Source: Candidatus Kaiserbacteria bacterium | GTDB lineage: Bacteria > Patescibacteriota > Minisyncoccia > Phycocordibacterales > UBA918 | Assembly (NCBI GenBank): GCA_043719825.1 | Contig: JAYSTK010000019.1 | Coordinates: forward strand, 1-45,022 | Reading direction: 5' to 3' | Length of the DNA stretch: 45,022 bases | Part shown: in pieces, positions 6,014 to 44,727 of the stretch | How the letters are laid out: each line of letters begins with the position of its first letter | Numbering within the stretch: the stretch's first letter is position 1 | Translations under genes and position numbers: made by a program | Notes under the pieces: generated by a model | The model's input: the letters and a program-made list of their open reading frames with translations, nothing else | Database searches by the model: none | Told to the model about the DNA's origin: nothing

Positions 6014-6400
6014 ATGACTCATGGTCTATATCATAAAATTCTCAGGGTAAGTATTGTCGTTACTTCACTTGTACTATTATTTGATGGGGGATTTATAACT
6101 CCGATTACAAAATCGTTGTCGCAAAATACCTACGTGTATTTAGGGAATGCGGTAGGCATATTCGCCGGCGTTGAACCTAATGAACTCAATGTCATTACCG
6201 CAGAATTAACCGAACGCACTCGTAATCTTGATGTACGTGAGCAACAAATTAGGGAACGTGAGATTGCGACACGCGATTTCAATAGTTCGCGGAACGATTA
6301 TTCAATTTATATTCTCTCCGTTATACTTTTTGCACTCACGTGCCTCATTTTGGTTAATTATGCGCTTGATTGGCGACGGGCGCGTCGCGTTTTTGCATGA
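6014..6400 (+). CDS. small bitopic/two-TM membrane protein with charged coiled segment
   Basis: 128 aa, with an N-terminal hydrophobic segment (VSIVVTSLVLLF), a central ELTERTRNLDVREQQIREREIATRD segment and a C-terminal TM (IYILSVILFALTCLILV). Its stop overlaps the next start (ATGA at 6397-6400). Confidence 0.55.
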   Translation: MTHGLYHKILRVSIVVTSLVLLFDGGFITPITKSLSQNTYVYLGNAVGIFAGVEPNELNVITAELTERTRNLDVREQQIREREIATRDFNSSRNDYSIYILSVILFALTCLILVNYALDWRRARRVFA

Positions 6401-10691: not shown

Positions 10692-10710
10692 TAAAATTTC
10701 AAGATATTCT

Positions 10711-30916: not shown

Positions 30917-31037
30917 TATGCGCATTTTCGACGCATTTCTTTGTTGCATCACTCGATTGTTCATTCGTCGTACGTCTGTGTACGCCTTACTCGCAAACGA
31001 GCTTGGGCCGCGAACTGCACTCGAAAATGCGCATACT
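30915..31037 (+). ncRNA. candidate structured element, copy B
   Basis: A 17-bp closing helix pairs AGTATGCGCATTTTCGA (30915-30931, including the last 2 nt of the stop codon) with TCGAAAATGCGCATACT (31021-31037). GCATTTCTTTGTT is at 30933-30945. The hairpin is CGTAC-GTCTGT-GTACG. TCGCAAAC and GAACTG (31012-31017) are also present. Confidence 0.45.
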
Positions 31038-31071
31038 GTGACCCAATTACGAAACGTGGCGAAGTCACCAC

Positions 31072-31175
31072 TTTCGAGAGACATTGCGCAGACGCATCGA
31101 GCATAGTAAAAAATTCACAGATTTTTATGCGTGTCTATCAAAATGTGTGATTGAGAAAGAGTTTTTTGATTTTTG
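31072..31175 (+). ncRNA. candidate structured cis-element, copy 1 (homolog of 40401-40498)
   Basis: It is roughly 80 percent identical by eye to 40401-40498. Nested helices are CGCAT (31093-31097) with ATGCG (31127-31131), and AAAAAT with ATTTTT. An asymmetric loop carries CGAGCATAG, followed by the AGAAAGAGTTTTTTGATTTTT tail. It ends 26 nt before the ATG at 31201. Confidence 0.4.
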
Positions 31176-31200
31176 TACTGTATAATAATTTTAATCTCGC

Positions 31201-32523: not shown

Positions 32524-32644
32524 AGCATAGAAATTTGGAACATTTCTTTGTTGGAACTACAGTTTTCTCCTTCACCGTACGTTGAGTACGTTTCATTCGT
32601 AAACTTTGTTCCGCCTCGAACTGTTCTCAAATTTCTATGCTCTA
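32521..32644 (+). ncRNA. candidate structured element, copy C
   Basis: A perfect 17-bp closing helix pairs TAGAGCATAGAAATTTG (32521-32537, including the TAG stop of the ATPase gene) with CAAATTTCTATGCTCTA (32628-32644). ACATTTCTTTGTT is at 32540-32552. The hairpin is CGTAC-GTTGA-GTACG. TCGTAAAC and GAACTG (32619-32624) are also present. Confidence 0.45.
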
Positions 32645-32740
32645 GATTTCTGACTTCAGTCCGTATCAGAAGGATTTTGAAGATGCGCTTTGAATCTGTG
32701 CGCAGCAATGTACGAAATCCCAACGATTTTGATAAAAGTA

Positions 32741-32798
32741 TAAAAAAGAAAACAGCTCCAGCAGGGAAGACGGAGATGTCTTCGCTCAGCGGGAGCTG
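32741..32798 (-). terminator. rho-independent terminator of the minus-strand gene
   Basis: On the minus strand, CAGCTCC...GGAGCTG (32753-32759 with 32792-32798), with an inner GAAGAC/GTCTTC helix, is followed by TTTTCTTTTTTA (complement of 32741-32752). It lies 20 nt after the stop of 32818-33252. Confidence 0.65.
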
Positions 32799-32817
32799 CC
32801 TATAGTGATGCTGGACT

Positions 32818-33252
32818 CTATGCAACTTCTAAGCGATGTGCGTCGATAAATTCCCGTTTGATTTCATTCGACAGTTTTTCTACGTCGTCATTATCCACTC
32901 GCCTGCCAAACAGTGCAACGGCAACAACGGCGAATGCCTGAAGACGCGATGAAGCGCTGTCGCGGTCTTCAGAACGCTGTTGGATCTTTGTACTTTTAAA
33001 GCCACTACGCGCAAAGGCCTCAAATGCAATGATGAACGCAGAAGCAGAAAGATCCTTTAGACCGGCAACCAAGCGAACGAAGTTGGTCGCGGCCTCTTGG
33101 CTGAAGTCATTTTTGATACCAACGTAAAACTTTTCGAGTATTCTGGAATTGAGATCGCTTTGTGTTGGCCCACGTCCAGCGTAGTAGCCAGCTTCAAATA
33201 CGAAACACTCTTCTCCACGCATCCAATTCTCAACAGTTCTAATTAAGTTCAT
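32818..33252 (-). CDS. hypothetical alpha-helical protein, the only minus-strand gene
   Basis: 144-aa ORF with an ATG start, its own terminator and no hydrophobic segment typical of secretion. I recognise no family motif (the sequence begins MNLIRTVENWMRGEECFVFEAGYYAGRGP). Confidence 0.55.
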   Translation of the reverse strand: MNLIRTVENWMRGEECFVFEAGYYAGRGPTQSDLNSRILEKFYVGIKNDFSQEAATNFVRLVAGLKDLSASAFIIAFEAFARSGFKSTKIQQRSEDRDSASSRLQAFAVVAVALFGRRVDNDDVEKLSNEIKREFIDAHRLEVA

Positions 33253-33470
33253 TCAGGACCTTCATAGAAGAAGAAAAAAGTACACTGACTCAAATCGAGT
33301 CGCCTATCAATACTGTACTATGATTCAATCAAAAGTCAAATTTATAAAGTTATGTGACACAGAAATGAGTAAATATTTTTTAAAAAATTTACTTAAGAGA
33401 TGACGACAGATCATAACTTATACAGCCGCGTGCATTCCTTATTATGGTGTTTCTATTTACTATATAGAGT

Positions 33471-34679
33471 ATGGAAGTTGTTGACTTAGCGCGTCTCTCA
33501 ACGCGTATGTTTAAAACGAACCCACTTCGTACGTGGCTTACTATTCTTGGCATGGGTGTGGGAACGGGTGCGGTGGTTATTCTTGTAGGTTTAGGATTTG
33601 GCCTCCAGCAGATTATTCTTGAACAGATTGTCTTCGGAGACAGTCTTCTCTCACTCGGCGTTTCTGCAACCGGTGCGCGAAATCTATCTATTACTGACGA
33701 GTCTATCAAAACATTTGAAGACAATGAATTTATTGAAGATGCTGCTCCGCTCGCTCGATATCCTGCGTTAGTTACCTATAAAGGACTTACGGGAAATGTG
33801 TTTTTACAGGGTGCTGAACCGGCATATCTTCGATATGCCGGTATCACCGCATCAGCAGGAGATGTATTTATTGAAGAAGATCTTATGAATGGAGGCGATG
33901 TGATGCTCTCACCGGCCGTCCTCAAGCTCTTTGGAGCAGAAGATCCCGAAGCGTTTATAGGTCAAGAAGTTTCATTTCGACTTCTTATTCCTGCTGAAGA
34001 TGGAAGTGACGCAATTAATGAAGTGATTATTGAGAAAAAATATCGCGTCCGAGGGATTACGAAAGAGGAGGGAGTACTCAATGCGCTTATTATGCTCCCC
34101 GAACTTAAAAATTATGTTGGAGTGGAAGCGTATGACCGTGCTCAAGTAAAAGTAGTTTCAAATGAGTATCTTACTCAAGTTGAAGAACTCCTTATTAAAG
34201 AAGGCTATCGAGTTACAGCACTTTCAAAAACAGTAGAACAAGCTTCAAAGATTTTTACGGGTATTCAAGCAACACTTGCTGTATTCGGTGGAATCGCGCT
34301 TATTGTGTCCGCTATCGGTATGTTTAATACCATGACCGTGACGCTTCTCGAACGTACAAAGGAAATTGGAATTATGCGCACACTAGGTGCTTCGCCCAGT
34401 GACGTTAAGCTCCTCTTCATTTCTGAATCAGTGATCGTAGGATTCCTTGGAGGAGTGAGTGGGATACTTATGGGGATAACCTTGGGATTGGTTGTGAATT
34501 TCGCTCTAAACATAGCTGCTTCTCAGTTTGGAGGACAAGCAGTCAAGCTATTTGCGTTTCCAACTTGGTTCCTTCTCTTCATCACTTTCTTCTCTGCAAT
34601 TGTGGGATATATGACCGGAATCTTTCCAGCACGACGTGCTGCACTTCTTAATCCGCTCGACGCGATTCGGTATGAATAG
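33471..34679 (+). CDS. ABC transporter permease, MacB/FtsX family
   Basis: 402 aa. An N-terminal TM (LRTWLTILGMGVGTGAVVILVGLGFG) is followed by a ~220-aa extracytoplasmic domain. The C-terminal FtsX-type three-TM bundle includes TLLERTKEIGIMRTLGASPSDV. Confidence 0.85.
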   Translation: MEVVDLARLSTRMFKTNPLRTWLTILGMGVGTGAVVILVGLGFGLQQIILEQIVFGDSLLSLGVSATGARNLSITDESIKTFEDNEFIEDAAPLARYPALVTYKGLTGNVFLQGAEPAYLRYAGITASAGDVFIEEDLMNGGDVMLSPAVLKLFGAEDPEAFIGQEVSFRLLIPAEDGSDAINEVIIEKKYRVRGITKEEGVLNALIMLPELKNYVGVEAYDRAQVKVVSNEYLTQVEELLIKEGYRVTALSKTVEQASKIFTGIQATLAVFGGIALIVSAIGMFNTMTVTLLERTKEIGIMRTLGASPSDVKLLFISESVIVGFLGGVSGILMGITLGLVVNFALNIAASQFGGQAVKLFAFPTWFLLFITFFSAIVGYMTGIFPARRAALLNPLDAIRYE

Positions 34680-34683
34680 GGAA

Positions 34684-34715
34684 CTGTGTATAACTAAAGG
34701 TTTTTTTATACACAG
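34684..34715 (+). terminator. hairpin after the permease gene (weak terminator)
   Basis: CTGTGTATAA (34684-34693) pairs with TTATACACAG (34706-34715), a 10-bp stem. The T-run lies in the loop and 3' arm rather than after the stem. Confidence 0.4.
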
Positions 34716-34747
34716 TCAGCTATTATATATACAAAGCTCATTAGTTT

Positions 34748-36580
34748 ATGTCTTACAACACTGATCAATTGCGTACGGCGGGCAAGATCACTGTATATAC
34801 CTCAATAGTTGGTGTATTCATTTTTGCAGTTGCGTTTATTTTTAATCTTGGCGTTTCTGAAATTCCTCAAGCGGGAGCACAAGATACTGCGACCACTTCA
34901 GTCCAAGTTTTAAATACCCCTCCGCTTTGGACTGCAAGCTCCACAGAGCTTGTTGAATCATCAGTAACATCCCCTACGAATGCAGGTGATGTTATAAGAT
35001 GGGTAGCAGTCGCAACTGATGCTAATGGAGAAAGATATTATTTGCTCGTATGCAGTACAAGTGCGACTCCTACTCCTAATTCTAATGCAGCACCTGCCTG
35101 CACTTCTGGAGTACAATGGGCAGTTTCAGCATCAACAACAAGTGGGACTCAAGCAACAGCTGCAACCACAACATATGCAGCACTTGGTGAAACAAATAAC
35201 TGGTTTGCGTGGATTTGTGACGGAAATGCTGGAACTCCACGTTGTAATACTTCTTTTACACAAGGTACAAACGCTACAAACTCATCACCATTTATCATAA
35301 ATCATAGACCTTCTTTTACACTTTTCTCTGATACTTCTCCAGGAGACCCAGGAACATTGATTACCTTTAACTCAACTTCGTCAGACTCAGACACTGCAGG
35401 TACTGCTGACACCGTTAAACTCATAGTTTGTGCTTCAGCTGGATTTAGTACTACAACAGATTCATGTACTGGAAATACACTTGGTAGTACGACAGTATTT
35501 GCAACAGCAAATGCAACTGCTACATACACAATAGTTATCCCAACTCAAGACCAAAATTACAGTGCATTTGGCTACGTAATAGATAATCATGGCTTTGAGG
35601 CTTCTGGTGGTGCACATGGTACTGACTCGACTTTAACAGTGAATAACGTAGCCCCAAGCATAACTCCCGCACTTATTTCACTTACTCAGGCTTCAGGTAC
35701 GGACTTATACTTAACAGTTGAATCCGCACAAACAACCGGTTTCACTCTGTCATTTGTGACTTCTGACAATAATAGTTGTCTCACTGCTGCTTCAACGACT
35801 GAAGTTTCAAACTATCAACTTAGCCTTTACAGATCGGGCATAGCTTCGACAACCTGTACTCCAACAGGTACTCATAATGCAAACAATTGTTATGTAAGTA
35901 GTGTCCCCACTACTACATGGAATCTTGGATGCACAGCTTCCTCTACATCATGTACGGGATCTAGTGACACTGATCAACGTTGGGATTGTACGTTCCCACT
36001 CTGGTACATCGCAGACCCCACCGACGGAACTGCGACAAGTACTCAGTATTCTACGCAAAATTGGCTTGCCCAAGTACGTGGAATTGACGACGATAATGCG
36101 ACAGGCTCTCTCTCAGAAAGTACAATTGGAGTAGAAGTAAAAAGCTTCCTCGCATTCGCACTTAATTCACTCTCGGTTGACTACGGCGCCCTTGAACCGG
36201 GTAATCAGACTGATCCACTTAATGCAACGACAACAATATCTGCAACAGGAAATGTTGGTCTCGACAAGGAAGTAAGTGGCTCATCGATGTGTACAACATA
36301 TACAAATAGCTCTCTATGTCCCGTTTCTGCAACGTCAACTATTAATGCTCAAGAACAAGTGTTTGCTACAGGAACTGTCTCATATGCATCTGCTCAGGCA
36401 CTTTCTTCCACGACAATTCAAGAAATTGAAATAAATGTTCCCAAATCTACGGCAACCTCTACGCAGGCAACAAATAATGCATACTGGGGAATCAGAGTTC
36501 CTGGCAGTGTAACTTTTGCTGGGTTTTACTACGGAAACAACGTCTTCTATGCGAAGGTAGGTGAATCAATGTTCTGGTAG
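34748..36580 (+). CDS. secreted Thr/Ser-rich surface protein sharing the giant protein's C-terminal module (CscC/WxL-like by architecture)
   Basis: 610 aa with an N-terminal signal anchor. The C-terminal ~310 aa (35641-36577) align block by block with 28306-29094 of the giant CDS: APSIT/VPNIT, NNCYV/NNCYI, DPTDGT/DPTDTG, YGALE/YGSLE, QVFATGT/QIFATST, YWGIRVP/FWGIEIP, NVFYA/NIFYA. Confidence 0.8.
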   Translation: MSYNTDQLRTAGKITVYTSIVGVFIFAVAFIFNLGVSEIPQAGAQDTATTSVQVLNTPPLWTASSTELVESSVTSPTNAGDVIRWVAVATDANGERYYLLVCSTSATPTPNSNAAPACTSGVQWAVSASTTSGTQATAATTTYAALGETNNWFAWICDGNAGTPRCNTSFTQGTNATNSSPFIINHRPSFTLFSDTSPGDPGTLITFNSTSSDSDTAGTADTVKLIVCASAGFSTTTDSCTGNTLGSTTVFATANATATYTIVIPTQDQNYSAFGYVIDNHGFEASGGAHGTDSTLTVNNVAPSITPALISLTQASGTDLYLTVESAQTTGFTLSFVTSDNNSCLTAASTTEVSNYQLSLYRSGIASTTCTPTGTHNANNCYVSSVPTTTWNLGCTASSTSCTGSSDTDQRWDCTFPLWYIADPTDGTATSTQYSTQNWLAQVRGIDDDNATGSLSESTIGVEVKSFLAFALNSLSVDYGALEPGNQTDPLNATTTISATGNVGLDKEVSGSSMCTTYTNSSLCPVSATSTINAQEQVFATGTVSYASAQALSSTTIQEIEINVPKSTATSTQATNNAYWGIRVPGSVTFAGFYYGNNVFYAKVGESMFW

Positions 36581-36691: not shown

Positions 36692-37630
36692 ATGATGAAG
36701 ATATTACTTCGCGCCTTTTTTTGTACAATTGTTTTTGTATTGGTGTTTGTGAATACAGTACATGCTGGTTTTGGTATTACTCCTCCATATGTTACAAACT
36801 CAAGTCTCACGAGAAACTCAATTTACGAGCAAGTAATCTATCTTGTTAGGAGCGACCCAACCACCGATCTCAAAGCAACAATAAGTATAGATGTCCCCGG
36901 CATTAACGAATGGTTTACTGTTGCTGAAGGAAATGAATTTATACTTCACCGAGGTGAGCAAAAAGTTCCAATGACTATAAAAGTGTCCGTTCCTGATAAA
37001 GCAGATTTCAAGCAATATAAAGGTAATATTCGAATAAAGACAGGCGCTCCAGATGATAGTGTTGCTTCAGCCGGTGTAAATATTTCTCTTGGTGCTCAAA
37101 TTGATGTTGATTTAAATGTTATAGACAAAGAGATTTTAGATTTTAAAGTGAGGCGTATTGGTATATCAGATTTAAATGAAGGTCATAAAGTTGGATGGTT
37201 ATATTTCCCCGGAAAGATTATGTTTGAAATGTATATTGAAAACATAGGAAACGTACCCGTTTCTCCATCAGATGTTGTGTTTAGAATCTATGATAGATCA
37301 GGTAACGTGATTCTTGAAGAGACACACAAAAAAGGAAAAATCGATAGTGTTGATCCTTTTATGACAGAAACAGTTTTTGCGGAACTCCCCACTCGTCTAC
37401 CGCAAGGAAGCTATCTCGCTCGATTTGAAATCAAAAATGGAGAAGAAATAAAACTTGCTGGGGAAGTAAACATAAGTATCTTGCCATTTGGTACTTTAGA
37501 TGCAGCAGGTTTTGGTTTTGCCGGCCTTTCACTTCCGCATAAACTTTCTGTTGTGGTTCCGATATTTTTCGCTGGTATGTTAGTTGTTTTAATTCTTGTT
37601 CGTATAGGAAGTCGACGTAAGATCAAGTAG
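36692..37630 (+). CDS. signal peptide + C-terminal TM anchored beta protein, DUF916/CscA-like, second copy
   Basis: 312 aa. The signal peptide ends VHA, then GFGITPPYVTNSSL...EQKVPMTIKVSVPDKADFKQYKGNIRIKT. The C-terminal TM is VVVPIFFAGMLVVLILV, followed by RIGSRRKIK. The layout matches 4924-5994. Confidence 0.7.
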   Translation: MMKILLRAFFCTIVFVLVFVNTVHAGFGITPPYVTNSSLTRNSIYEQVIYLVRSDPTTDLKATISIDVPGINEWFTVAEGNEFILHRGEQKVPMTIKVSVPDKADFKQYKGNIRIKTGAPDDSVASAGVNISLGAQIDVDLNVIDKEILDFKVRRIGISDLNEGHKVGWLYFPGKIMFEMYIENIGNVPVSPSDVVFRIYDRSGNVILEETHKKGKIDSVDPFMTETVFAELPTRLPQGSYLARFEIKNGEEIKLAGEVNISILPFGTLDAAGFGFAGLSLPHKLSVVVPIFFAGMLVVLILVRIGSRRKIK

Positions 37631-37634: not shown

Positions 37635-38759
37635 ATGAATGAATTCCGCATATCAACATCGGGTCTCTTAGCCGGAGGGATCCTCATATTGCTCTCATGT
37701 CCTTTTTTTGCACACGCTCAGATTAATATAGCAACCACTTCTGTGCTCATTAGTATTTGTGGTGATCTCATCATCAACTCGGGGGAGGAGTGTGATGTGC
37801 CAAGTGATACTGGGGCATACAGCACATCAATAACAGGACGACAGTGCACGACTGAGTGTCGATTTGCTGCATATTGTGGGGACGCGATTCTGCAAACACT
37901 ATTCGGAGAACAATGCGATGATGGTAACAACAACAATGATGACTTTTGTTCAGCTAATTGTGCTGAAGAAACTGCTGATGCAGGAGGAGGGTCAACAGGA
38001 GGTGGTGGAAGTTCTGGTTCTGGAGGGAGAGATTCAGCACTTGGAGACACACAGGTTACGCTTCAAGGAAAAGCATACCCAAATGTGACGGTTACGATTC
38101 TCATGGATAGCAAATCAGTCGGTACCGTCCGCACAAATTCTAAAGGAGAATTTTTATTTAATTTAGCAGCAGATCCGGGTACTGCATCATTTAGTTTTTG
38201 GGCCAATGATCAAACTGGCACTCGTTCTTCAACATTCACTACAACGTTTGATGTTACGCAAGGAGCAGTAACAAATGTAAGTGGCATTCTTATCCCGCCG
38301 ACTATACGGACAGCAACTTCACAAGTTAATCCAGGTGCAATAATCATACTCGAAGGACAAACGATTCCAAATGTAAACGTGGAAATTTCTGTCGACAATG
38401 GCGCACGTATGCTCAACACGCTTTCTGATGCGACCGGAAAGTGGACGACGTCACTCAATACAACCGGCCTCAGTGTGAATACCCACACTGCCAAGGCACG
38501 TTTTATTGAAGGTGCAAGTACGCTTAAACGGGAAAGTACATATGGATCGAACCTCTCCCTATTTATTGGTGTGGAAGGGAAGGCAACAAGTAATTCGGAT
38601 CTAAATCGTGATGGAAAAATAAACTTAGTGGACTTTTCAATTCTTGTTTTTTGGTGGGGAACACCAGGTGGAAATTCAAATCCTCCCGCTGATATAAATA
38701 GTAATGCAAAAGTAGGTCTTGAAGATTTTTCTATTTTACTTTTTAACTGGACGGGCTAA
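37635..38759 (+). CDS. secreted protein: Cys-rich repeats (myxococcal/DUF4215-like), Gly linker, Ig-like repeats, C-terminal dockerin
   Basis: 374 aa. CGDLIINSGEECDVPSD... and CGDAILQTLFGEQCDDGNNNNDDFCSANC fit the CGDG..EECDDGN..C repeat. A GGGSTGGGGSSGSGG linker follows. The C-terminal half is paralogous to 8115-9986. The dockerin segments are DLNRDGKINLVDFSILVFWW and DINSNAKVGLEDFSILLFNW. Confidence 0.8.
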   Translation: MNEFRISTSGLLAGGILILLSCPFFAHAQINIATTSVLISICGDLIINSGEECDVPSDTGAYSTSITGRQCTTECRFAAYCGDAILQTLFGEQCDDGNNNNDDFCSANCAEETADAGGGSTGGGGSSGSGGRDSALGDTQVTLQGKAYPNVTVTILMDSKSVGTVRTNSKGEFLFNLAADPGTASFSFWANDQTGTRSSTFTTTFDVTQGAVTNVSGILIPPTIRTATSQVNPGAIIILEGQTIPNVNVEISVDNGARMLNTLSDATGKWTTSLNTTGLSVNTHTAKARFIEGASTLKRESTYGSNLSLFIGVEGKATSNSDLNRDGKINLVDFSILVFWWGTPGGNSNPPADINSNAKVGLEDFSILLFNWTG

Positions 38760-38766
38760 TGTAAGA

Positions 38767-38822
38767 GCATAGAAAATACACATGACACTAATCTATAAGA
38801 TTAGTGTCATGTGTATTTATGC
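38767..38822 (+). terminator. long perfect hairpin after 37635-38759
   Basis: AAATACACATGACACTAATC (38774-38793), loop TATAA, GATTAGTGTCATGTGTATTT (38799-38818) form a 20-bp perfect stem. GCAT (38767-38770) pairs with ATGC (38819-38822) as an extension. There is no clear U-tract. GAGCATAG at 38765-38772 overlaps the hairpin base. Confidence 0.55.
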
Positions 38823-39134
38823 GGGTCTAAAAAAGGTAATAATCAAAGAGATTTTGTGTATAACTGTTCATCATTTAAAAATGTACACGTTACAATGCAG
38901 ATACGTTCATTGGAGATTGGTATTCCATACATGTGAGGAATACCAATTTGTAAGAGGAAACTTTTGCCGGTACGAACAGCCGAGTACCGTCCATTGAACG
39001 GAATATGTCGATAGTGAACAAAGAGGGGTGGAGACTCTCGTGTTTCTAGGGTGCGAGATTATGCTGAAGAGCACAGCATTCGCATTTCTCATTATCAGAG
39101 TCGACATATTGAGATGTAATACAACGTAAAGTCT

Positions 39135-40286
39135 ATGAGTAACACGGCAAGAACCGTGACCACTCTACAGGCTGTAGCGATGATTGTTGGAGTGGCAGTA
39201 TTTCTTTGGAGTACTGGTCTTCCAACCCTCTTCCGATTTGCGGAAGCGGCATCGATCACAAATGCGAGCGATACATTGTCGAGTTCAGCACCAAGTTTAG
39301 CGTCAAATCACACCATCGGGTTTACAACACCAAATGGTTTGATTATCGGTCAAACGATAGCGCTTACTTTTGCTGGAGGGTTTAACTTGGCTTCAATTAT
39401 TGAAGACGATGTCGACATTCTCATCAATGGACTTTCCTCAACTACAGTAGCTGGAGCAGCTAGTGCAGGAAACTGGGGAGTCACTTTTTCGGGGAATGTT
39501 GTAACATTTACAACACCCACTAACTCAGGAGTTGCATCGGCAACACCAATCGTTATACGAATTGGTAACCATGCAGTCACCTCAGGAACTGGTGCAAACC
39601 AAATCATAAATCCATCCTCAACAACAACGTCGCATGCGATTGATATTGGGGGAACAATGCAGGACTCGGGCCAAGTCCGAGTCGCAATCGTGAATCAAGT
39701 CACGCTAAGTGCAAGTGTAGATACATCGCTTACATTTACAGTTTCTGGAGTAAATTCCAGTTCAACAGTAAATGGTAGTCCGACTACAACGTCGGCTACG
39801 ACTACGAGTAGCGCACTTCCATTTGGGTCTCTCTCAGCAAATCAATCAAAGGTACTTGCTCACGACCTCGCTGTTACCACAAATGCCTCACAAGGGTATA
39901 CGGTAACTGTTGAGCAAACGGGAGCATTGCAGTCTACGACGGGAGCAACCATCGATGGATTCATTGATGGAGCAAACACAGTCACGCCAACAGCGTGGCA
40001 GGCCCCGTCAGCACTCATTGCAAATCCTAATACGTACGGTCACTGGGGTCTAACCTCAACTGATGGTACGACAACTCGTACAGCGCTAGAGGAATTTAGC
40101 TCTAACAGATGGGTTTCAGGAAGTACAACGCCTATTGTGATCATGGGACACACCGGTCCTGCAGATGGAACCACTTCTGGTTCTGGAGCTGCACGAATCG
40201 GATTCCAAGCTCAGATTTCGCCATTGCAAGAAGCAGGTGCCGACTATACAACGACACTTCGCTACATTGCAACGCCGACATTCTAA
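39135..40286 (+). CDS. secreted beta-rich surface protein, SAPS-box family, paralog of 3673-4821
   Basis: 383 aa, colinear with 3673-4821. The signal anchor ends AEAA, followed by DTLSSSAPSLASNHT. VRVAIVNQVTLSASVDTSLTFTV, ALPFGSLSAN, GYTVTVEQ and WGHWGLTS follow in order. It ends GFQAQISPLQEAGADYTTTLRYIATPTF. Confidence 0.8.
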   Translation: MSNTARTVTTLQAVAMIVGVAVFLWSTGLPTLFRFAEAASITNASDTLSSSAPSLASNHTIGFTTPNGLIIGQTIALTFAGGFNLASIIEDDVDILINGLSSTTVAGAASAGNWGVTFSGNVVTFTTPTNSGVASATPIVIRIGNHAVTSGTGANQIINPSSTTTSHAIDIGGTMQDSGQVRVAIVNQVTLSASVDTSLTFTVSGVNSSSTVNGSPTTTSATTTSSALPFGSLSANQSKVLAHDLAVTTNASQGYTVTVEQTGALQSTTGATIDGFIDGANTVTPTAWQAPSALIANPNTYGHWGLTSTDGTTTRTALEEFSSNRWVSGSTTPIVIMGHTGPADGTTSGSGAARIGFQAQISPLQEAGADYTTTLRYIATPTF

Positions 40287-40300
40287 AACAGCTGTAGAAC

Positions 40301-40341
40301 AGAAAAACCCTATCTCCCACCACGAGAAGGGTTTTTCTTTT
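40301..40341 (+). terminator. rho-independent terminator
   Basis: GAAAAACCCT (40301-40310) pairs with AGGGTTTTTC (40327-40336), followed by TTTTG. Confidence 0.8.
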
Positions 40342-40400
40342 GCTCAAATACTAATCAATAATATAGATATTTCAATTCAAAACTCGTTGCTGTTATTACA

Positions 40401-40498
40401 TTTCTGAGACATTGCACAGGCGTATGCCGAGCATAGCAAAAATCATAGATTTTATACGTGTCTCAGAAAGTGATGGCAAGAAAGAGTTTTAGATTTTT
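40401..40498 (+). ncRNA. candidate structured cis-element, copy 2 (homolog of 31072-31175)
   Basis: A perfect 11-bp outer helix pairs TTTCTGAGACA (40401-40411) with TGTCTCAGAAA (40459-40469). The inner helices are CGTAT with ATACG and AAAATC with GATTTT. A 13-nt 5'-side loop, GCCGAGCATAGCA, is present. The AGAAAGAGTTTTAGATTTTT tail runs to 40498. Confidence 0.4.
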
Positions 40499-40539
40499 CA
40501 ATATTTGTGTGAGTAGCGGTCCTTTTATGGAGTAAGTAT

Positions 40540-40548
40540 TGGTATACT
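40540..40548 (+). promoter_or_regulatory. extended -10-like element
   Basis: TGgTATACT at 40540-40548, 9 nt upstream of the ATG at 40558. Confidence 0.35.
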
Positions 40549-40557
40549 AAGTGCATT

Positions 40558-41586
40558 ATGTTGTTTCTCCGGATACACTTGTATATAAGCATTTTTGCAA
40601 TTTTAGTCTGTGCATTCGTTCTTATCCTTGTCTCTATTCCAACATCAGTTAACGCAGCACTTTTGTATTTTGATCCAAGTGAAGCGTCCCTCTATAGAGG
40701 GGATACTGTAACCTTAAATCTCAGGATAGATACTGACGAAGGTGAGTGCATTAATACAGTTGACGCCGTAGTGAAGTACGGTGATGGGATACGTGCCGTT
40801 GATGTTTCTCGAGGTGATTCAATTCTCAATATATGGGTTGAAAATCCATTAATTGATGAAGTTAATAAAACAGTAACTTTTGCTGGTGGAATTCCTGGAG
40901 GATACTGTGGGAGAGCTCTCGGAGATCCGAGTCTTACCAATGTTATCGCAGCTATTGTTTTTAATTCCCCCGGTTTCAGTGTGGGCGGCACGAGCGTCCC
41001 CATTGTTGCTGTGGACATTGCTCCAGAATCACAAGTGTTGCTTCATGATGGGCTCGGTACTGTAGCAAATCTTAATACTCAGGGAACAAAAATTACTCTC
41101 CTTGCAACACCAGGTCAAACAGGAACTGATGCATGGAATGAGACGGTGAGTGAAGATCTCGTCCCTCCTTCAGATTTCAGTGTTGGCATTTCTCAAGACG
41201 AAACAGCTTTCAGCAATCAATATTTTATTGTTTTTAACACACAAGATAAACAATCGGGTATTGATCATTATGAGGTCATTGAAGAACCGCTCGAAGATTT
41301 CTATACGTTTACATGGGGTCGCGCTGACGCTCCGTGGCTTACCGTTGAAAGTCCCTATGTTCTAAAGGATCAAACACTTAATAGCACAATTCGAGTAAAA
41401 GCTATTGATAAAGCGGGGAATGAAAGGATCACAGTGCTTGTACCCGATAGTGCAATTAGATCTATTTCATTTAACCGGATGATTACCTATGCGCTCAGTG
41501 GAGTAATCGGAATAATTCTACTTATGGGGATTGTTTATATTCTTATAAAACGTAAAAGCAAACTTGAAGCAACCTATGAGCAATAA
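40558..41586 (+). CDS. cohesin-like domain protein with Ig-like domain and C-terminal TM anchor
   Basis: 342 aa with a signal anchor. LLYFDPSEASLYRGDTVTLNLRIDTDEGECINTVDAVVKYGDGIRAVDVSRGDSILNIWVENP...FAGGIPGGY follows the same block order as the other cohesin-like modules. The TM is near the C-terminus (VIGIILLMGIVYILI), with a short basic tail. Confidence 0.7.
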   Translation: MLFLRIHLYISIFAILVCAFVLILVSIPTSVNAALLYFDPSEASLYRGDTVTLNLRIDTDEGECINTVDAVVKYGDGIRAVDVSRGDSILNIWVENPLIDEVNKTVTFAGGIPGGYCGRALGDPSLTNVIAAIVFNSPGFSVGGTSVPIVAVDIAPESQVLLHDGLGTVANLNTQGTKITLLATPGQTGTDAWNETVSEDLVPPSDFSVGISQDETAFSNQYFIVFNTQDKQSGIDHYEVIEEPLEDFYTFTWGRADAPWLTVESPYVLKDQTLNSTIRVKAIDKAGNERITVLVPDSAIRSISFNRMITYALSGVIGIILLMGIVYILIKRKSKLEATYEQ

Positions 41587-43321
41587 ATGTGCATTGAATA
41601 TAGTATGGAGTGCAGCTCTACTCTTATTTGTTTTTATTATTCCCACATATGCTCTTGCTGCTACATTGCGATTAAGTCCAGAAACGGGCGTGTATACAGC
41701 GGGGAGCACATTTACCGCAAATGTAATTATTAATACTGATGGCAAATCAGTGAATGCCGCAGACGGACAACTTTCCTTCAATCCTAAAGAACTTTCTGTG
41801 GTAAGTGCAACTCGAGGAACCTCTATTTTTAATCTATGGACCCTCGAGCCAACATTTTCAAACAGTGCAGGAACTATTTCATTTGGTGGTGGATCACCAT
41901 CTGGCTATAAAGGATCCAATGGAACAATTATGTCGGTTACGTTCCGTACACAATCAGCAGGAACTCCCAAAGTTTCTTGGAAAAGTGGTTCCATTTTAGC
42001 AGCGGACGGACTAGGCACCAATATACTTACTTCGATGAACGGAGGCACCTACACAGTAGGTGCTAAAAGTGAAACACCACCTGCCGAGTACATTCCCCCC
42101 GCAAATACGCCAAAAGCTCCTACAATAACTTCATCTACACATTCAGATACTGAGCGTTGGTACAAAGAAAAAAATGCCGAACTCGCATGGAGTATCCCAA
42201 ATGATGTTATTGCAGTAAGAACTTTACTTGATAATTCAAAAGAAACTATACCGACAATTATTTATGATGAACCAATTACCAAAAAAAGTATTACTGCCTT
42301 ACATGAAGGAGTATCATATTTTCACATTCAATTCAAAAATGCAGATGGATGGGGAAGAATAACTCATTTTCCACTTCGCATTGATTCTGAAGCACCAAAG
42401 CGTTTTGATATAACAGAAACGGAAACAGATGCAGAAAAGCCCGTTCGTACACTCACGTTTGATATTGAAGACACATCGCCAATATCTAAATATGTTGTTC
42501 AAGTCGATGGTGGGGAACCCGTTGAATATATTGATACAAAAAATACGAAACAATATGAACTTAAGGATTTAAATCCAGGGAACCACACTGTGGTAATTGA
42601 GGCATTCGATAGTGCAGGAAATAGTCGCGTTGCTACATACTCCTTTACTATTGATTCGTTTGAACCACCAGTATTTACAGATTATCCGACACGACTTCAA
42701 ACTAATGTTATCCCTGCTCTAAAAGGAATGACTCGCCCTCGAGTACAGGTTTATATTGAAGTTAGAAAAGCTTCAGACGGAGCAATCGTAGGAGGTGAAA
42801 GCACCGATACTTCTAGTCCATCAAATATTACTGCAAACGAAAAAGGGGAATTTACGTATGTGCCTAATACTGCTTTTGAAAAAGGTGTATATATAATTAC
42901 TGCTACGGCTCGAGATGAATTCGGTAGGCAGAGTGAAAAATCTGAGGAAATTAGAATCATTGTCGATGCTCCGGGATATGTGGTTATTGGAACAATTGTG
43001 GTGAATGCACTTTCAGTCATTGTCCCTCTTATTGCACTCTGCCTCCTGCTCATTTTTGGTACATGGTTTCTTTTTCATAAACTAAGAGTATGGAAAAGAC
43101 GGGTGATGAGAGAAACGTTAGAAGCTGAAGATAAATTAAGAACAGAACTTGATGCTATTATCGACAACATGCATGCTCGTGTGAATGATCTAAAAGAATC
43201 ACGAAAGTCAAAATTGACTCAAGCAGAATCAGCACTCATCGAACAAATTGAACATGATGTTGCTTCAGCTCGAGAAAAAATCAAGAAGGAAATTACTGAT
43301 ATTGAACGTATTGTAGAATAA
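41576..43321 (+). CDS. cohesin-like domain protein with Ig-like domains, TM anchor and ~80-aa cytoplasmic coiled-coil tail
   Basis: The ATG at 41576 (MSNKCALNIVW...) overlaps the upstream gene by 11 nt. LRLSPETGVYTAGSTFTANVIINTDGKSVNAADGQLSFNPKELSVVSATRGTSIFNLWTLEPTFSNSAGTISFGGGSP...LAADGLGTNI is closely parallel to 10711-12243. The TM is at about 43015-43075, followed by a charged tail ending KEITDIERIVE. Confidence 0.8.
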   Translation: MSNKCALNIVWSAALLLFVFIIPTYALAATLRLSPETGVYTAGSTFTANVIINTDGKSVNAADGQLSFNPKELSVVSATRGTSIFNLWTLEPTFSNSAGTISFGGGSPSGYKGSNGTIMSVTFRTQSAGTPKVSWKSGSILAADGLGTNILTSMNGGTYTVGAKSETPPAEYIPPANTPKAPTITSSTHSDTERWYKEKNAELAWSIPNDVIAVRTLLDNSKETIPTIIYDEPITKKSITALHEGVSYFHIQFKNADGWGRITHFPLRIDSEAPKRFDITETETDAEKPVRTLTFDIEDTSPISKYVVQVDGGEPVEYIDTKNTKQYELKDLNPGNHTVVIEAFDSAGNSRVATYSFTIDSFEPPVFTDYPTRLQTNVIPALKGMTRPRVQVYIEVRKASDGAIVGGESTDTSSPSNITANEKGEFTYVPNTAFEKGVYIITATARDEFGRQSEKSEEIRIIVDAPGYVVIGTIVVNALSVIVPLIALCLLLIFGTWFLFHKLRVWKRRVMRETLEAEDKLRTELDAIIDNMHARVNDLKESRKSKLTQAESALIEQIEHDVASAREKIKKEITDIERIVE

Positions 43322-43328
43322 AAATGCT

Positions 43329-43985
43329 ATGAAAAATTATTTAACAGAACATCTTCTCATAGCAGGTAATGCTTTATTGCTTGCTGCTATTATCGCTCTC
43401 TCTGCATGGACGATTGAAAATACAAAAGCAAATACACTTTCGCTTTTACAAAGTAATATTGAAACACAAGTAACACACATAACGGAACTTGCAGAACTTA
43501 CTGATAGAAATGGCGCAGATGCTGTGACTGAAGAAATCATATCTGATTGTCCTCGCCGTGTAGAATTTGAAAATCAACTCATGCGCCTCGATAGCGCAAC
43601 AAAAAGAGAGCTCATTACAATTCAACAATTATTTGAAAGTTGTGGCACTTTTTTTGCTGAAAGAAAGGCACTTATGGTTTCTCGTTTAGAACGGGAATTC
43701 TTGAGTTTGAAAAATGATTTAGCCTTATTGAGTACCATTCGAGATCTATCATCTAATGAAGAGAAATTGAAGGAATGGGAAAAACTTATTGAATTAGAAA
43801 AAACGAGGAGTGCATTACTCGCAGAACAAACTGCAATTCAAGAAAAAATTATTAGTCTTCTCATGAGTGATACCAATGTGACTGTCGAAATCAATGTCCT
43901 TGTACGAGAAGCACAAAATGTGAGTCAATCATTATCTGTTACGGGCGCTCAAATTGATACGTTGACCAAAGAGCTCACTAACTAA
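43329..43985 (+). CDS. N-terminally anchored coiled-coil protein
   Basis: 218 aa. One N-terminal TM (LLIAGNALLLAAIIALSAWTI) is followed by heptad-like charged helical sequence. It is tightly packed between two cohesin genes. Confidence 0.6.
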   Translation: MKNYLTEHLLIAGNALLLAAIIALSAWTIENTKANTLSLLQSNIETQVTHITELAELTDRNGADAVTEEIISDCPRRVEFENQLMRLDSATKRELITIQQLFESCGTFFAERKALMVSRLEREFLSLKNDLALLSTIRDLSSNEEKLKEWEKLIELEKTRSALLAEQTAIQEKIISLLMSDTNVTVEINVLVREAQNVSQSLSVTGAQIDTLTKELTN

Positions 43986-43986
43986 T

Positions 43987-44727
43987 ATGCGTGATTGGCT
44001 TACTCGAATACTTTTTCCATCCTACTACCGCTCGCAACCGCGAAGTACCGTACGCTATGCCTTCCCTATCATAGCGCTCACTGCACTGTTTGCTGGGTTA
44101 GCTTCTGTCGTGAGTCAAGATTCTTCGTATATTATTGTTCAAACAACACCTTCAACTATTAAAGAAGGTGAAACATTTACTATTGAAGTAAGAGCCCATG
44201 CGAGCACTCCAGTGAATGCTGTAGATATCACACTTAACTATCCAGAAAATCAAATATCCATAGAGAGTATTGATAAAGGAACTTCCGTCATTACCCTATG
44301 GACACAGGATCCCTATGCAAGAAACGGCAAAATATACTTACGAGGTGGAGTCTTTCAAAAGGGATTTCTTGGTGAACATACAATTGCTCGTATCAGAGCA
44401 AAAGCGACTCAGGCTGGTCTTGCGTACGTGTCACTTGATACCGCCGCACTTATAGCTGGAGATGGTAAAGGAACAGAAGTAATTGTGGAGCGAACAAGTA
44501 AGGATGAAACTAGAATCCTAGTTCAGAATAAAGAGGGATCCCTCACCGGTGAGGCAAGTGTCGCTATTGTCACCGATATAGATGGTAGTGGGGGAGTTGA
44601 TATTAGAGACATATCAGCTTTTATGGCCGCGTGGTTTACAAAAGGTAAAGTGTTTGATTTTAACAATGATGGAAAGATGACTTTTAGAGATTTTTCAATT
44701 TTGCTTGCAGATTCATTTTTTAAGTGA
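43987..44727 (+). CDS. anchored protein carrying both a cohesin-like module and a dockerin (adaptor-type)
   Basis: 246 aa with an N-terminal TM. The cohesin-like module is IKEGETFTIEVRAHASTPVNAVDITLNYPENQISIESIDKGTSVITLWTQDP...LIAGDGKGTEV. The dockerin pair is DIDGSGGVDIRDISAFMAAWF and DFNNDGKMTFRDFSILLADSF. Confidence 0.75.
   Translation: MRDWLTRILFPSYYRSQPRSTVRYAFPIIALTALFAGLASVVSQDSSYIIVQTTPSTIKEGETFTIEVRAHASTPVNAVDITLNYPENQISIESIDKGTSVITLWTQDPYARNGKIYLRGGVFQKGFLGEHTIARIRAKATQAGLAYVSLDTAALIAGDGKGTEVIVERTSKDETRILVQNKEGSLTGEASVAIVTDIDGSGGVDIRDISAFMAAWFTKGKVFDFNNDGKMTFRDFSILLADSFFK

What the first reader, a model, noticed from the sequence alone, without database searches (positions are those of the whole stretch)
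37635..44727. Non-cellulosomal cohesin-dockerin inventory with a built-in hierarchy (anchors, adaptor, cargo)
Seen: cohesin-like modules lie in 10711-12243, 40558-41586, 41576-43321 (all three with C-terminal TM anchors) and 43987-44727. Dockerin EF-hand pairs (D-x-N-x-D-G-x-(V/I)-x-x-x-D-F) lie at the C-termini of 8115-9986, 37635-38759 and 43987-44727. The last protein carries both, as cellulosomal adaptor scaffoldins do. In 37635-38759 the second Ca-loop is degenerate (DINSNAKV instead of D-x-N-x-DG), which would make that dockerin asymmetric. The cargo consists of Ig-like, Cys-rich and SAPS-box modules, not enzymes.
Established: cohesin-dockerin pairs are high-affinity Ca-dependent connectors, and non-cellulosomal copies are known from genome surveys but are mostly uncharacterised.
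Basis: partly seen in the sequence, partly recalled or inferred. Interest (0 to 1): 0.7.

Follow-up and report, generated by a model that had tools for sequence, protein, structure and literature searches.

The report
Membrane cohesin–dockerin anchors in CPR pilus locus
The cohesin and dockerin "plug-and-socket" modules are real, and they form the conserved membrane-attachment part of a large cell-surface and pilus gene cluster shared by many ultra-small Patescibacteria (CPR), where they probably hold secreted surface proteins, possibly including the base of a pilus, on the cell.

Summary
The window encodes exactly four cohesin modules and three dockerins, and no others. Three cohesins and all three dockerins pass Pfam thresholds as isolated modules. 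The fourth cohesin (40558-41586) is homologous by profile comparison and matches only solved cohesins by fold.

The 'degenerate' second loop keeps all Ca-ligand positions and is conserved within its clade. The 'adaptor' 43987-44727 itself carries a conserved N-terminal membrane segment. The 'SAPS-box' cargo is the N-domain of Pam-like pilins.

The main new result is the context. Dockerin protein, cohesin-X and cohesin-TM genes sit in a fixed order in about 80 Patescibacteria species, downstream of a MacB-type ABC transporter and a chaperone-like gene. Of 79 pilin-centred loci, 61 carry both cohesin and dockerin genes.

Protein 8115-9986 joins a pilin N-domain and linker strand to a dockerin, with no acceptor domain. 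It always lies near a cohesin-TM gene.

Best reading: membrane cohesins tether dockerin-tipped secreted subunits, perhaps including the pilus base. Binding is inferred, not shown. This is a new variant of a known kind.

The parts
37635..38759 (+). Secreted dockerin protein 'docA'. It has a signal peptide (cleavage after AHA, aa 28), Cys-rich DUF4215/myxo_disulf repeats (aa ~70-113), a Gly-rich linker, two Ig-like domains and a C-terminal dockerin.
   Evidence: Pfam and NCBIfam hits. Found in 52 of 53 related loci that have room upstream of cohesin-X.
38595..38756 (+). Dockerin of docA, with two Ca loops (DLNRDGKINLVD and DINSNAKVGLED), each followed by a DFSIL.F.W helix. It ends in WTG.
   Evidence: PF00404 scores 23.1-31.4 bits against a gathering score of 22.9. 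All 30 orthologues tested hit PF00404. The family profile finds PDB dockerins. The loop variant is conserved within its clade.
39135..40286 (+). Pam-like pilin with a signal peptide, a 'SAPS-box' N-domain, a VRVAIVNQV linker strand and a C-domain. Its paralogue lies at 3562-4821 (55% identity; the likely true start is 3673).
   Evidence: The only NCBIfam hit is NF058581 CPR_Pam_pilin_C. It is full-length on the model but scores 21-22 bits against a cutoff of 55. Eight of 10 orthologues give the same hit. Paralogy is shown.
40558..41586 (+). Cohesin-X membrane protein. It has a signal peptide (cleavage after VNA, aa 33), a cohesin module (nt 40657-41112), a highly conserved second beta domain, a TM helix (nt 41482-41547) and a short basic tail.
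   Evidence: hhalign against the 41564 cohesin gives probability 98.2%. The top 45 Foldseek matches of the AlphaFold model are cohesins. More than 1500 homologues exist, the listed ones 55-85% identical, with no Pfam domain.
41564..43321 (+). Cohesin-TM anchor. It has a signal peptide, a cohesin (nt 41654-42067), Big_13 Ig-like domain(s), a TM segment (nt 42986-43075) and an 81-aa helical cytoplasmic tail (nt 43076-43318). It overlaps the end of the previous gene.
   Evidence: PF00963 scores 31.9 bits and Big_13 gives E 1.9e-12. It is a paralogue of 10666-12243 (37% identity over 364 aa, and the tails also align). It lies immediately downstream of cohesin-X in 75 of 79 loci.
43329..43985 (+). 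Small protein with an N-terminal TM segment and a coiled-coil-like region. It is conserved between the cohesin-TM and cohesin-dockerin genes in the closer clade.
   Evidence: Synteny. No family hit was found.
43987..44727 (+). Small protein carrying both a cohesin and a dockerin. It has an Arg-rich N-terminus and hydrophobic segment (nt 44059-44115), a cohesin (nt 44125-44526) and a dockerin (nt 44572-44724; loops DIDGSGGVDIRD and DFNNDGKMTFRD).
   Evidence: PF00963 scores 25.4 bits and PF00404 scores 24.9 bits. Foldseek top hits are cohesins (2xdh, 2vo8). There are 810 homologues, the 120 listed ones 214-257 aa and mostly 244-247 aa. The dockerin ligand positions are invariant. Distant orthologues keep the TM-cohesin-dockerin architecture.
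8115..9986 (+). Pilin-dockerin fusion. It has a signal peptide, a pilin-type N-domain and linker strand (nt 8217-8702), an FN3-like domain, a Gly-rich linker, two Ig-like domains and a dockerin (nt 9822-9983). It has no pilin C-domain.
   Evidence: hhalign of the pilin family against 8115 aligns aa 36-189 with aa 32-196 (probability 97.4%, E 1.6e-11). PF00404 scores 42.1 bits. The architecture is conserved down to 32% identity.
10666..12243 (+). Second cohesin-TM anchor. It has a cohesin (nt 10801-11211), an Ig-like region, a TM segment (nt ~11935-12000) and a helical cytoplasmic tail. It lies two genes downstream of the pilin-dockerin fusion.
   Evidence: PF00963 scores 31.4 bits. The order dockerin protein, Hsp20, cohesin-TM is conserved in other genomes.
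36692..37630 (+). Chaperone-like protein with a signal peptide, a beta-rich ectodomain and a C-terminal TM segment. It is a possible PamC/D analogue. Its paralogue lies at 4924-5994.
   Evidence: The assignment rests on architecture and synteny only. hhalign against 4924-5994 gives probability 79%. A weak WxLIP_PGBD hit is seen in 4924-5994. No link to PDB or Pfam chaperones was found.
29387..36580 (+). Conserved upstream context: an FN3 protein (29387-30916), an ABC ATPase with a C-terminal extension (31201-32523), a MacB/FtsX-type permease (33471-34679) and a 610-aa Cys-rich surface protein (34748-36580).
   Evidence: Family hits. The gene order is conserved in related loci: the FtsX gene is present upstream in 35 of 42 loci with enough room.

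Best explanation
This is a true non-cellulosomal cohesin-dockerin set. It forms the conserved membrane-attachment part of a Patescibacteria (Paceibacteria/Kaiserbacteria-type) surface-appendage super-locus.

Proposed mechanism:
- Three bitopic membrane proteins (10666-12243, 40558-41586 and 41564-43321) are exported by signal peptides and held by C-terminal TM helices. Each presents one cohesin on an Ig-like stalk outside the cell.
- Secreted proteins ending in a dockerin plug into these cohesins in a Ca-dependent way. They are thereby retained on a cell that has no outer membrane.
- One such protein (37635-38759) displays a Cys-rich module.
- Another (8115-9986) starts with a pilin N-domain and the linker (donor) strand of Pam-like pilins but lacks the acceptor C-domain. 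It could therefore cap the proximal end of a donor-strand-exchange pilus built from pilins 3562-4821 and 39135-40286. It would tether that pilus, through its dockerin, to the neighbouring cohesin-TM protein.
- The small protein 43987-44727 carries both a cohesin and a dockerin and is probably tethered by its own N-terminal segment. It would cross-link or extend the anchor complex.

Shown here: module identities, topology signals, paralogy, and conserved gene order in about 160 loci.
Inferred: that these cohesins bind these dockerins, which pairs form, and the pilus-anchoring role.
For: Module identity comes from Pfam on isolated modules, hhalign, AlphaFold plus Foldseek, and the dockerin family profile against Pfam and the PDB. 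The inventory is complete at four cohesins and three dockerins.

Gene order in the cohesin-X loci:
- A dockerin gene lies upstream in 52 of 53 loci that have room.
- Cohesin-TM lies immediately downstream in 75 of 79 loci.
- A TM-cohesin-dockerin gene lies within 5 kb in 54 of 70 loci, including distant lineages where it is on the other strand.

The docA dockerin is the most conserved module of the locus. Its mean pairwise identity is 0.78, against 0.50 for the adjacent Ig domains and 0.76 for FtsX. This fits a constrained binding interface.

Link to the pilus:
- The pilins hit only CPR_Pam_pilin_C.
- The Pam model of donor-strand exchange with a membrane-anchored terminator comes from preprint 10.64898/2026.03.03.709456.
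- The N-domain and strand of 8115 are homologous to the pilin N-domain.
- The fusion is conserved and always accompanied by cohesin-TM-type cohesins, never cohesin-X.
- Of 79 pilin-centred loci, 61 contain both dockerin and cohesin genes. Most of the rest are cut by contig ends, and I found only two untruncated exceptions, L114 with neither and L093 without a dockerin gene.
Against: - No binding was measured or modelled, because no multimer prediction was available.
- Mirror-tree partial correlations between dockerin and cohesin modules (0.2-0.45) did not single out any pair.
- The pilin assignment to the Pam family is below the curated cutoff (16-30 bits against 55).
- The chaperone-like proteins have no detectable sequence link to PapD/FimC-type or any solved chaperone, and their fold was not predicted.
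- The universal dockerin protein (37635-38759 family) has no pilin part, and the dockerin, cohesin-X, cohesin-TM core exists in loci without an adjacent pilin gene. The system is therefore not pilus-specific.
- The dockerin part of the 43987-44727 model has low confidence (pLDDT about 55).
Confidence: 0.55

Rival explanations
1. This is plain hierarchical surface display. Membrane cohesins act as anchors, 43987-44727 acts as a released adaptor, and the dockerin proteins are adhesin cargo. There is no role in pilus anchoring, and the pilin-like N-domain of 8115-9986 is just another displayed Ig-like module.
For: The module-identity evidence is the same. The universal dockerin protein lacks any pilin part, and the core trio occurs without an adjacent pilin gene. 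No enzyme domains are present.
Against: 43987-44727 keeps a conserved Arg-rich N-terminus and hydrophobic segment even in distant orthologues, which is unlike a disposable signal peptide. 8115-9986 retains the linker strand VAI(I/V)xxV in all ten family members aligned and specifically lacks the acceptor domain. Pilin genes are almost always co-located with cohesin and dockerin genes.
Confidence: 0.25
2. The modules do not pair with each other. The dockerin-like ends would act as Ca-binding stabilising modules or as host- or glycan-binding modules. The cohesin-like domains would act as structural spacers or bind another ligand, for example on a host cell.
For: Many non-cellulosomal dockerins occur without known partners (background cited in PMC9012536). 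Wang et al. speculated on glycan targeting for an essential dockerin-domain protein in a Saccharibacterium (PMC10633639). The mirror-tree signal was not specific.
Against: Dockerin and cohesin genes are adjacent in two separate paralogous locus types across about 160 loci. One conserved protein carries both modules. The dockerin is conserved as strongly as a core transporter.
Confidence: 0.1
3. The cohesin-dockerin protein 43987-44727 polymerises head to tail, with its dockerin binding the next copy's cohesin. Together with the membrane cohesins this would form a chain or lattice (an S-layer-like coat) on the cell surface.
For: It has one cohesin and one dockerin in a tightly length-constrained protein of mostly 244-247 aa that is very well conserved (53-80% identity among the listed homologues). 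Its closest structural match is the Archaeoglobus fulgidus cohesin 2xdh. From my own knowledge, the A. fulgidus proteins also carry a dockerin.
Against: There is no evidence that its dockerin recognises its own cohesin type. A probable N-terminal membrane tether would limit chain growth.
Confidence: 0.07

Closest known systems
Cellulosome anchoring and adaptor scaffoldins (for example Clostridium thermocellum SdbA/OlpB and Acetivibrio cellulolyticus ScaA/ScaB)
   Same: Both use cohesin modules of the same fold (Foldseek TM 0.67-0.84 to solved cohesins) and type-I-like duplicated F-hand dockerins. In both, surface-bound cohesins would hold dockerin-bearing secreted proteins. Both include a protein carrying a cohesin and a dockerin together.
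   Different: This system has no glycoside hydrolases or CBMs. Each protein has only one cohesin. Anchoring is by TM helices with cytoplasmic tails, whereas cellulosome anchors use SLH modules or sortase (the latter from my own knowledge). The host is a Patescibacterium. The genes are embedded in a pilin, chaperone-like and ABC-transporter locus.
Non-cellulosomal cohesin-dockerin proteins of Archaeoglobus fulgidus, ANME archaea and Clostridium perfringens
   Same: These are also non-cellulolytic organisms, and their proteins carry single or few cohesins. The A. fulgidus cohesin 2xdh is the top structural match of the 43987-44727 cohesin. Archaeal pairs have been shown to bind (cited in PMC9012536, and PMC6394049).
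   Different: Those proteins are scattered or variable between relatives (PMC9012536). Here there is a fixed set of four to five proteins in a fixed gene order across many species, linked to pilin genes.
Pam pilus system of CPR bacteria (Ca. Mycosynbacter amalyticus; bioRxiv 10.64898/2026.03.03.709456)
   Same: Both have CPR-specific two-domain pilins with a donated linker strand, chaperone-like proteins anchored by a C-terminal TM helix, and a proposed terminator that has a donor strand and no acceptor domain and ties the pilus to the membrane. The window pilins hit only CPR_Pam_pilin_C.
   Different: The hits fall below the family cutoff. The preprint does not mention cohesin or dockerin, and its anchor PamR has its own TM helix. 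Here the candidate terminator ends in a dockerin, and the TM helix would be supplied in trans by a cohesin protein. The lineage is Paceibacteria-type rather than Saccharimonadia or Microgenomatia.

Membership tests
Cohesin (Pfam PF00963; cohesin fold) | Profile HMM score at or above the Pfam gathering score (24.1 bits) | tested here: met
   Scores are 31.9 bits (41654-42067), 31.4 bits (10801-11211) and 25.4 bits (44125-44526). Module 40657-41112 gives no Pfam hit but is homologous to the 41564 cohesin (hhalign probability 98.2%, E 3.5e-14).
Cohesin (Pfam PF00963; cohesin fold) | Beta-sandwich fold superposable on solved cohesins | tested here: met
   For the AlphaFold model of 40558-41586, the top 45 PDB matches are all cohesins (E down to 5e-9, TM 0.67-0.77). 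For the model of 43987-44727, the top matches are cohesins 2xdh (TM 0.79) and 2vo8 (TM 0.84). The other two modules were not modelled and are assigned by homology.
Cohesin (Pfam PF00963; cohesin fold) | Ca-dependent high-affinity binding of a dockerin | not testable with these tools
   No multimer prediction or wet-lab test was available. Only conserved gene adjacency supports it.
Dockerin type I (Pfam PF00404) | Profile HMM score at or above the gathering score (22.9 bits) | tested here: met
   Scores are 42.1 bits (9822-9983), 23.1 bits (38595-38756; 31.4 with a 70-aa tail) and 24.9 bits (44572-44724). All 30 orthologous tails tested hit PF00404. The family profile finds cellulosomal dockerins in the PDB (2y3n_B, E 2.9e-7).
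Dockerin type I (Pfam PF00404) | Duplicated F-hand: two 12-residue Ca loops with O-donor residues at positions 1, 3, 5 and 12, each followed by a helix | tested here: met
   Six loops occur in three C-terminal pairs. All have D at 1, N or D at 3, D, N or S at 5, and D at 12. Two helices are modelled at aa 206-218 and 233-245 of 43987-44727, although with low pLDDT.
Cellulosome | Dockerins borne by carbohydrate-active enzymes | tested here: not met
   The three dockerin proteins have no catalytic domain. They carry only Ig-like, DUF4215 and pilin-like modules.
Cellulosome | Primary scaffoldin with multiple cohesins and a CBM, anchored by SLH modules or sortase | tested here: not met
   Each protein has one cohesin and there are no further cohesins in the window. 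No CBM or SLH hits were found. The anchors are TM helices.
Pam pilus system (CPR) | Pilin matching NCBIfam NF058581 CPR_Pam_pilin_C at or above its cutoff (55 bits), with N-domain, linker strand and C-domain architecture | tested here: inconclusive
   This is the only family hit and it covers the full model, but it scores 21-22 bits for the window pilins and 16-30 bits for 8 of 10 orthologues. The architecture is compatible by sequence layout. No structure was predicted.
Pam pilus system (CPR) | Membrane-anchored PapD/FimC-like chaperones (PamC/D) | tested here: inconclusive
   36692-37630 and 4924-5994 have a signal peptide, a beta-rich ectodomain and a C-terminal TM segment, and they are syntenic with the pilins. 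There is no sequence link to solved chaperones or to Pfam.
Pam pilus system (CPR) | PamR-type terminator with a donor strand and its own TM helix | not tested
   No PamR sequence was available for comparison. 8115-9986 has an N-domain, a strand and an FN3-like domain, but ends in a dockerin instead of a TM helix.

The most novel reading that the evidence does not exclude
In Paceibacteria-type CPR bacteria, a cohesin-dockerin pair serves as the membrane anchor and terminator of a donor-strand-exchange (Pam-like) pilus. A conserved subunit with a pilin N-domain and donor strand but no acceptor domain ends the fibre. It plugs the fibre, by its dockerin, into a transmembrane cohesin whose cytoplasmic helical tail may couple it to the cell. 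More widely, a fixed set of four membrane cohesin and dockerin proteins next to a MacB-type ABC transporter would be the core of the host-attachment apparatus of these episymbionts. This would be the first use of cohesin-dockerin in pilus biogenesis.
Probability: 0.3. Interest if true: 0.8.

Novelty: new variant of a known kind. Interest (0 to 1): 0.66.

Why it matters
How ultra-small CPR/Patescibacteria build their surface and attach to hosts is largely unknown. Most of their envelope proteins are unannotated.

This work shows that widely conserved 'hypothetical' families are membrane-bound cohesins or dockerin partners. These families have more than 1500 and about 800 database clusters. They sit in a stereotyped locus with pilins, giant surface proteins and an ABC transporter.

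It gives concrete, cheaply testable protein pairs: 12 cohesin-dockerin combinations and one strand-groove complex. It also gives a candidate answer to how the newly described Pam-type pili could be anchored in lineages without a PamR-like anchor.

For the cohesin-dockerin field, it would add a transmembrane-anchored, non-enzymatic, lineage-wide system. That would be a new natural context for these connectors.

Tried and rejected
1. Mirror-tree test. I compared distance matrices of dockerin and cohesin modules in 23 complete loci, using partial correlations that controlled for FtsX, chaperone-like and p34748 distances. The aim was to decide which dockerin pairs with which cohesin. All values were 0.2-0.45 with no outstanding pair, so the test was uninformative.
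2. Pilin-like acceptor domains in large proteins. I tested whether the C-terminal modules of 34748-36580 and of the giant protein 12325-29097 are pilin C-domain-like, which would make them tip subunits. hhalign probability was 0.5% or less, so this was rejected. The two C-termini are, however, homologous to each other (27% identity, E 4e-22).
3. Chaperone link. A sequence or profile link of the chaperone-like family (alignment A4) to solved PapD/FimC-type chaperones or to Pfam gave nothing significant.
4. PDB sequence search with the cohesin-X family profile gave no hits. Only the fold search worked.
5. Literature. Searches for cohesin or dockerin together with CPR, Patescibacteria or Parcubacteria found no paper describing this locus in the held library. 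Peer et al. 2009 is not held.
6. 'Degenerate, asymmetric dockerin' was rejected on the orthologue alignment.
7. Hidden extra cohesins or dockerins, for example inside the 5590-aa protein, were looked for and none were found.

Full report
**What is in the window.** Almost all genes lie on the + strand. Homologues of the finding's proteins come from Candidatus Kaiserbacteria, Paceibacterota and Parcubacteria MAGs, so the window is from a Patescibacteria (CPR) genome. The region 37635-44727 encodes, with tight or overlapping gene junctions:
- a secreted dockerin protein (37635-38759);
- a pilin-like protein (39135-40286);
- two membrane proteins with N-terminal cohesins (40558-41586 and 41564-43321);
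- a small TM and coiled-coil protein (43329-43985);
- a 246-aa protein with a cohesin and a dockerin (43987-44727).

A paralogous pair lies upstream: the dockerin protein 8115-9986 and the cohesin protein 10666-12243.

**Check of the observation: cohesins.** As full proteins, two cohesins pass the Pfam threshold, one is just below, and 40558-41586 has no hit. Scanned as isolated modules, three of four cohesins pass (31.9, 31.4 and 25.4 bits against 24.1). The Pfam-negative module is homologous to the 41564 cohesin (hhalign probability 98.2%, E 3.5e-14). I built an AlphaFold model from 37 homologues. Its block-mean pLDDT is mostly 75-94 over aa 34-185, with two blocks near 61-64. The top 45 PDB matches of that model are all cohesins. 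The model of 43987-44727 (cohesin pLDDT 80-92) likewise matches almost only cohesins. Its best matches are the non-cellulosomal Archaeoglobus fulgidus module 2xdh (TM 0.79) and the C. perfringens cohesin 2vo8 (TM 0.84).

**Check of the observation: dockerins and inventory.** All three dockerins pass Pfam as isolated modules (42.1, 23.1-31.4 and 24.9 bits against 22.9). All 30 orthologous tails tested hit PF00404. Their profile retrieves cellulosomal dockerins from the PDB. A six-frame scan of the whole window with family HMMs and a loop regex finds exactly four cohesins and six Ca loops in three C-terminal pairs, and nothing else. The C-terminal TM helices followed by basic tails are visible in the sequences and in the model.

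- *The second loop.* DINSNAKVGLED in 37635-38759 keeps D, N, N and D at positions 1, 3, 5 and 12. The same form (DINxN[GA]xVG[LI]ED) recurs in its close orthologues. The two helices that would contact a cohesin remain near-identical. All 66 orthologues end in DFSI[LM][LM][FY]xWTG or a near variant. This is a conserved variant, not decay, and gives no basis for asymmetry.
- *The 'adaptor'.* 43987-44727 has five Arg in its first 23 residues, then a hydrophobic segment with invariant positions. Distant orthologues at 25-30% identity keep a basic N-terminus, a TM segment, a cohesin and a dockerin. It is therefore probably membrane-tethered, N-in and C-out.
- *The 'SAPS box'.* It belongs to a pilin N-domain. 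Proteins 39135-40286 and 3562-4821 (55% identical) hit only NCBIfam CPR_Pam_pilin_C. The hit is full-length on the model but below cutoff. Eight of 10 orthologues behave the same way.

Pam pili are CPR-specific donor-strand-exchange pili described in a 2026 preprint. That preprint proposes TM-anchored chaperones and a membrane-anchored terminator, PamR. It never mentions cohesin or dockerin.

**Conservation of the cohesin families.** The 40558-41586 family has more than 1500 database clusters; the listed homologues are 55-85% identical, and none has a Pfam domain or a functional name. The 43987-44727 family has 810 homologues, the 120 listed ones 214-257 aa and mostly 244-247 aa. I fetched loci around cohesin-X from 80 GTDB species representatives, chosen from 95 hits. 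I then mapped all window proteins onto them. The gene order is fixed:

[giant protein], FN3 protein, ABC ATPase, MacB/FtsX permease, p34748, chaperone-like protein, dockerin protein, [pilin], cohesin-X, cohesin-TM, [coiled-coil protein], TM-cohesin-dockerin protein, giant protein.

Counts from these loci:
- A dockerin gene lies upstream of cohesin-X in 52 of 53 loci with room.
- Cohesin-TM follows immediately in 75 of 79 loci.
- The small cohesin-dockerin gene lies within 5 kb in 54 of 70 loci.

The invariant core, kept even at about 30% identity, is dockerin protein, cohesin-X and cohesin-TM. Within 23 complete loci the docA dockerin is the most conserved module (0.78 mean identity). It equals the FtsX permease (0.76) and far exceeds the adjacent Ig domains (0.50).

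**The link to the pilus.** The N-terminal 165 residues of mature 8115-9986 are homologous to the pilin N-domain, up to and including the strand that corresponds to the donated linker (hhalign probability 97.4%, E 1.6e-11). It has no pilin C-domain. Instead it continues into an FN3-like domain, a Gly-rich linker, two Ig-like domains and the dockerin. This fusion is conserved in about 20 protein clusters down to 32% identity. The VAI(I/V)xxV strand is kept in all ten aligned members, and the dockerin is the best-conserved segment.

Its locus type ('type A') recurs in other genomes in this order: CAP, S24, Y-family polymerase, pilin, chaperone-like protein, small protein, two FGE-like proteins, dockerin-pilin fusion, Hsp20, cohesin-TM, giant protein. 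Type A loci contain only cohesin-TM-type cohesins. WTG-type dockerin with cohesin-TM-type cohesin is therefore the parsimonious cognate pair.

In a separate scan centred on the pilin, 61 of 79 loci contain both dockerin and cohesin genes within 10 kb. Thirteen contain only one, and most of these are cut by contig ends. Five contain neither, of which four are truncated and one (L114) is a true exception; L093 is a second untruncated exception, with cohesin genes but no dockerin gene. The window shows both locus types joined by the 5590-aa gene.

**Mechanism.** By analogy with the Pam model, a subunit with a donor strand but no acceptor groove can only be the last, proximal subunit. In M. amalyticus that role is proposed for PamR, which has its own TM helix. 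Here the equivalent subunit ends in a dockerin. The TM helix and a conserved cytoplasmic tail of about 80 aa sit on the cohesin protein encoded two genes downstream.

I therefore propose that the membrane cohesins are general sockets for dockerin-tipped secreted proteins, and that one of these proteins anchors a Pam-like pilus. The identities, topology signals and synteny are shown. The binding, the pairing and the pilus role are inferred. I put 0.55 on this overall reading and about 0.3 on the pilus-anchor component specifically.

**What did not work.**
- Mirror-tree analysis could not assign pairs.
- The p34748 and giant-protein C-termini are not pilin-like.
- No paper in the held library describes cohesin or dockerin genes in CPR loci. 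The nearest mention is an essential dockerin-domain envelope protein in a Saccharibacterium (PMC10633639). Non-cellulosomal cohesin-dockerin proteins are otherwise known from archaea and other bacteria (PMC9012536; PMC6394049).

**Verdict.** The thing is a new variant of a known connector system: single-cohesin, TM-anchored, non-enzymatic, conserved across a CPR lineage and tied to pilus genes.

Noticed in passing
window 83-45022; related loci L097-L167: The whole window is one conserved super-locus. Type A runs CAP, S24 peptidase, Y-family polymerase, pilin, chaperone-like protein, small TM protein, two FGE-like proteins, dockerin-pilin fusion, Hsp20, cohesin-TM. It is joined by the giant gene to type B, which runs FN3, ABC, FtsX, p34748, chaperone-like protein, dockerin protein, pilin, cohesin-X, cohesin-TM, coiled-coil protein, cohesin-dockerin protein. 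Both types recur in the same genomes.
   Followed up: partly
window 6370-7206 and 7234-8040: Two paralogous FGE-sulfatase-domain proteins (PF03781), each with an N-terminal TM or signal segment, are conserved between the chaperone-like gene and the dockerin-pilin gene. The invariant pilin motif DTLSxSAPSxxSNHT contains an S-x-P-x stretch. From my own knowledge this is reminiscent of the (C/S)xPxR site modified by formylglycine-generating enzymes, though it lacks the Arg. Pilin modification is possible but untested.
   Followed up: no
window 10227-10691: An Hsp20/alpha-crystallin protein without a signal peptide sits between the dockerin-pilin gene and the cohesin-TM gene. It keeps that position in nearly all type A loci. 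The reason is unknown.
   Followed up: no
window 12325-29097 and 34748-36580: A 5590-aa protein with an N-terminal TM segment separates the two locus types. Its last ~330 aa are homologous to the C-terminal part of the 610-aa protein 34748-36580 (27% identity, E 4e-22). It contains no cohesin or dockerin, and this shared module is not pilin-like. A homologue carries DUF2341.
   Followed up: partly
window 31201-32523, 32818-33252 (-), 33471-34679: A MacB/LolCDE-type ABC system is conserved upstream of the cohesin-dockerin genes. Its ATPase has a C-terminal extension of about 200 aa. A small minus-strand ORF lies between the ATPase and the permease, and one relative has a Fic gene inserted there. 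The cohesin-TM proteins have conserved cytoplasmic helical tails. Coupling between the two is conceivable but untested.
   Followed up: no
window 40558-41586 (aa 200-300): The second domain of cohesin-X is extremely conserved (DKQSGIDHYEV..., SPYVLKDQTLNSTIRVKAIDKAGNE) yet was modelled with pLDDT below 50. The cohesin itself has two invariant Cys (C64, C117) and an inserted GGIPGGYCGR motif that is absent from the other cohesins.
   Followed up: no
L026, L030, L062, L065, L066, L072 and many 'uncultured Candidatus Saccharibacteria' records: Several loci with the same Patescibacteria-type gene order come from MAGs labelled Acidimicrobiales, Azotimanducaceae or Gammaproteobacteria. Many binchicken MAGs are labelled Saccharibacteria. 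These are probably mislabelled or contaminated bins, so the titles cannot be used for taxonomic distribution.
   Followed up: no
L086 9643-10275: One type A locus has an extra ~200-aa protein with a cohesin-like module between the dockerin-pilin gene and Hsp20, plus two tandem cohesin-TM genes.
   Followed up: no
window 83-3381: A CAP/YkwD-family secreted protein and a UmuD-like S24 peptidase plus Y-family polymerase pair are conserved at the left edge of type A loci. This looks like an ordinary SOS-mutagenesis cassette with unexplained constant linkage to the surface locus.
   Followed up: no
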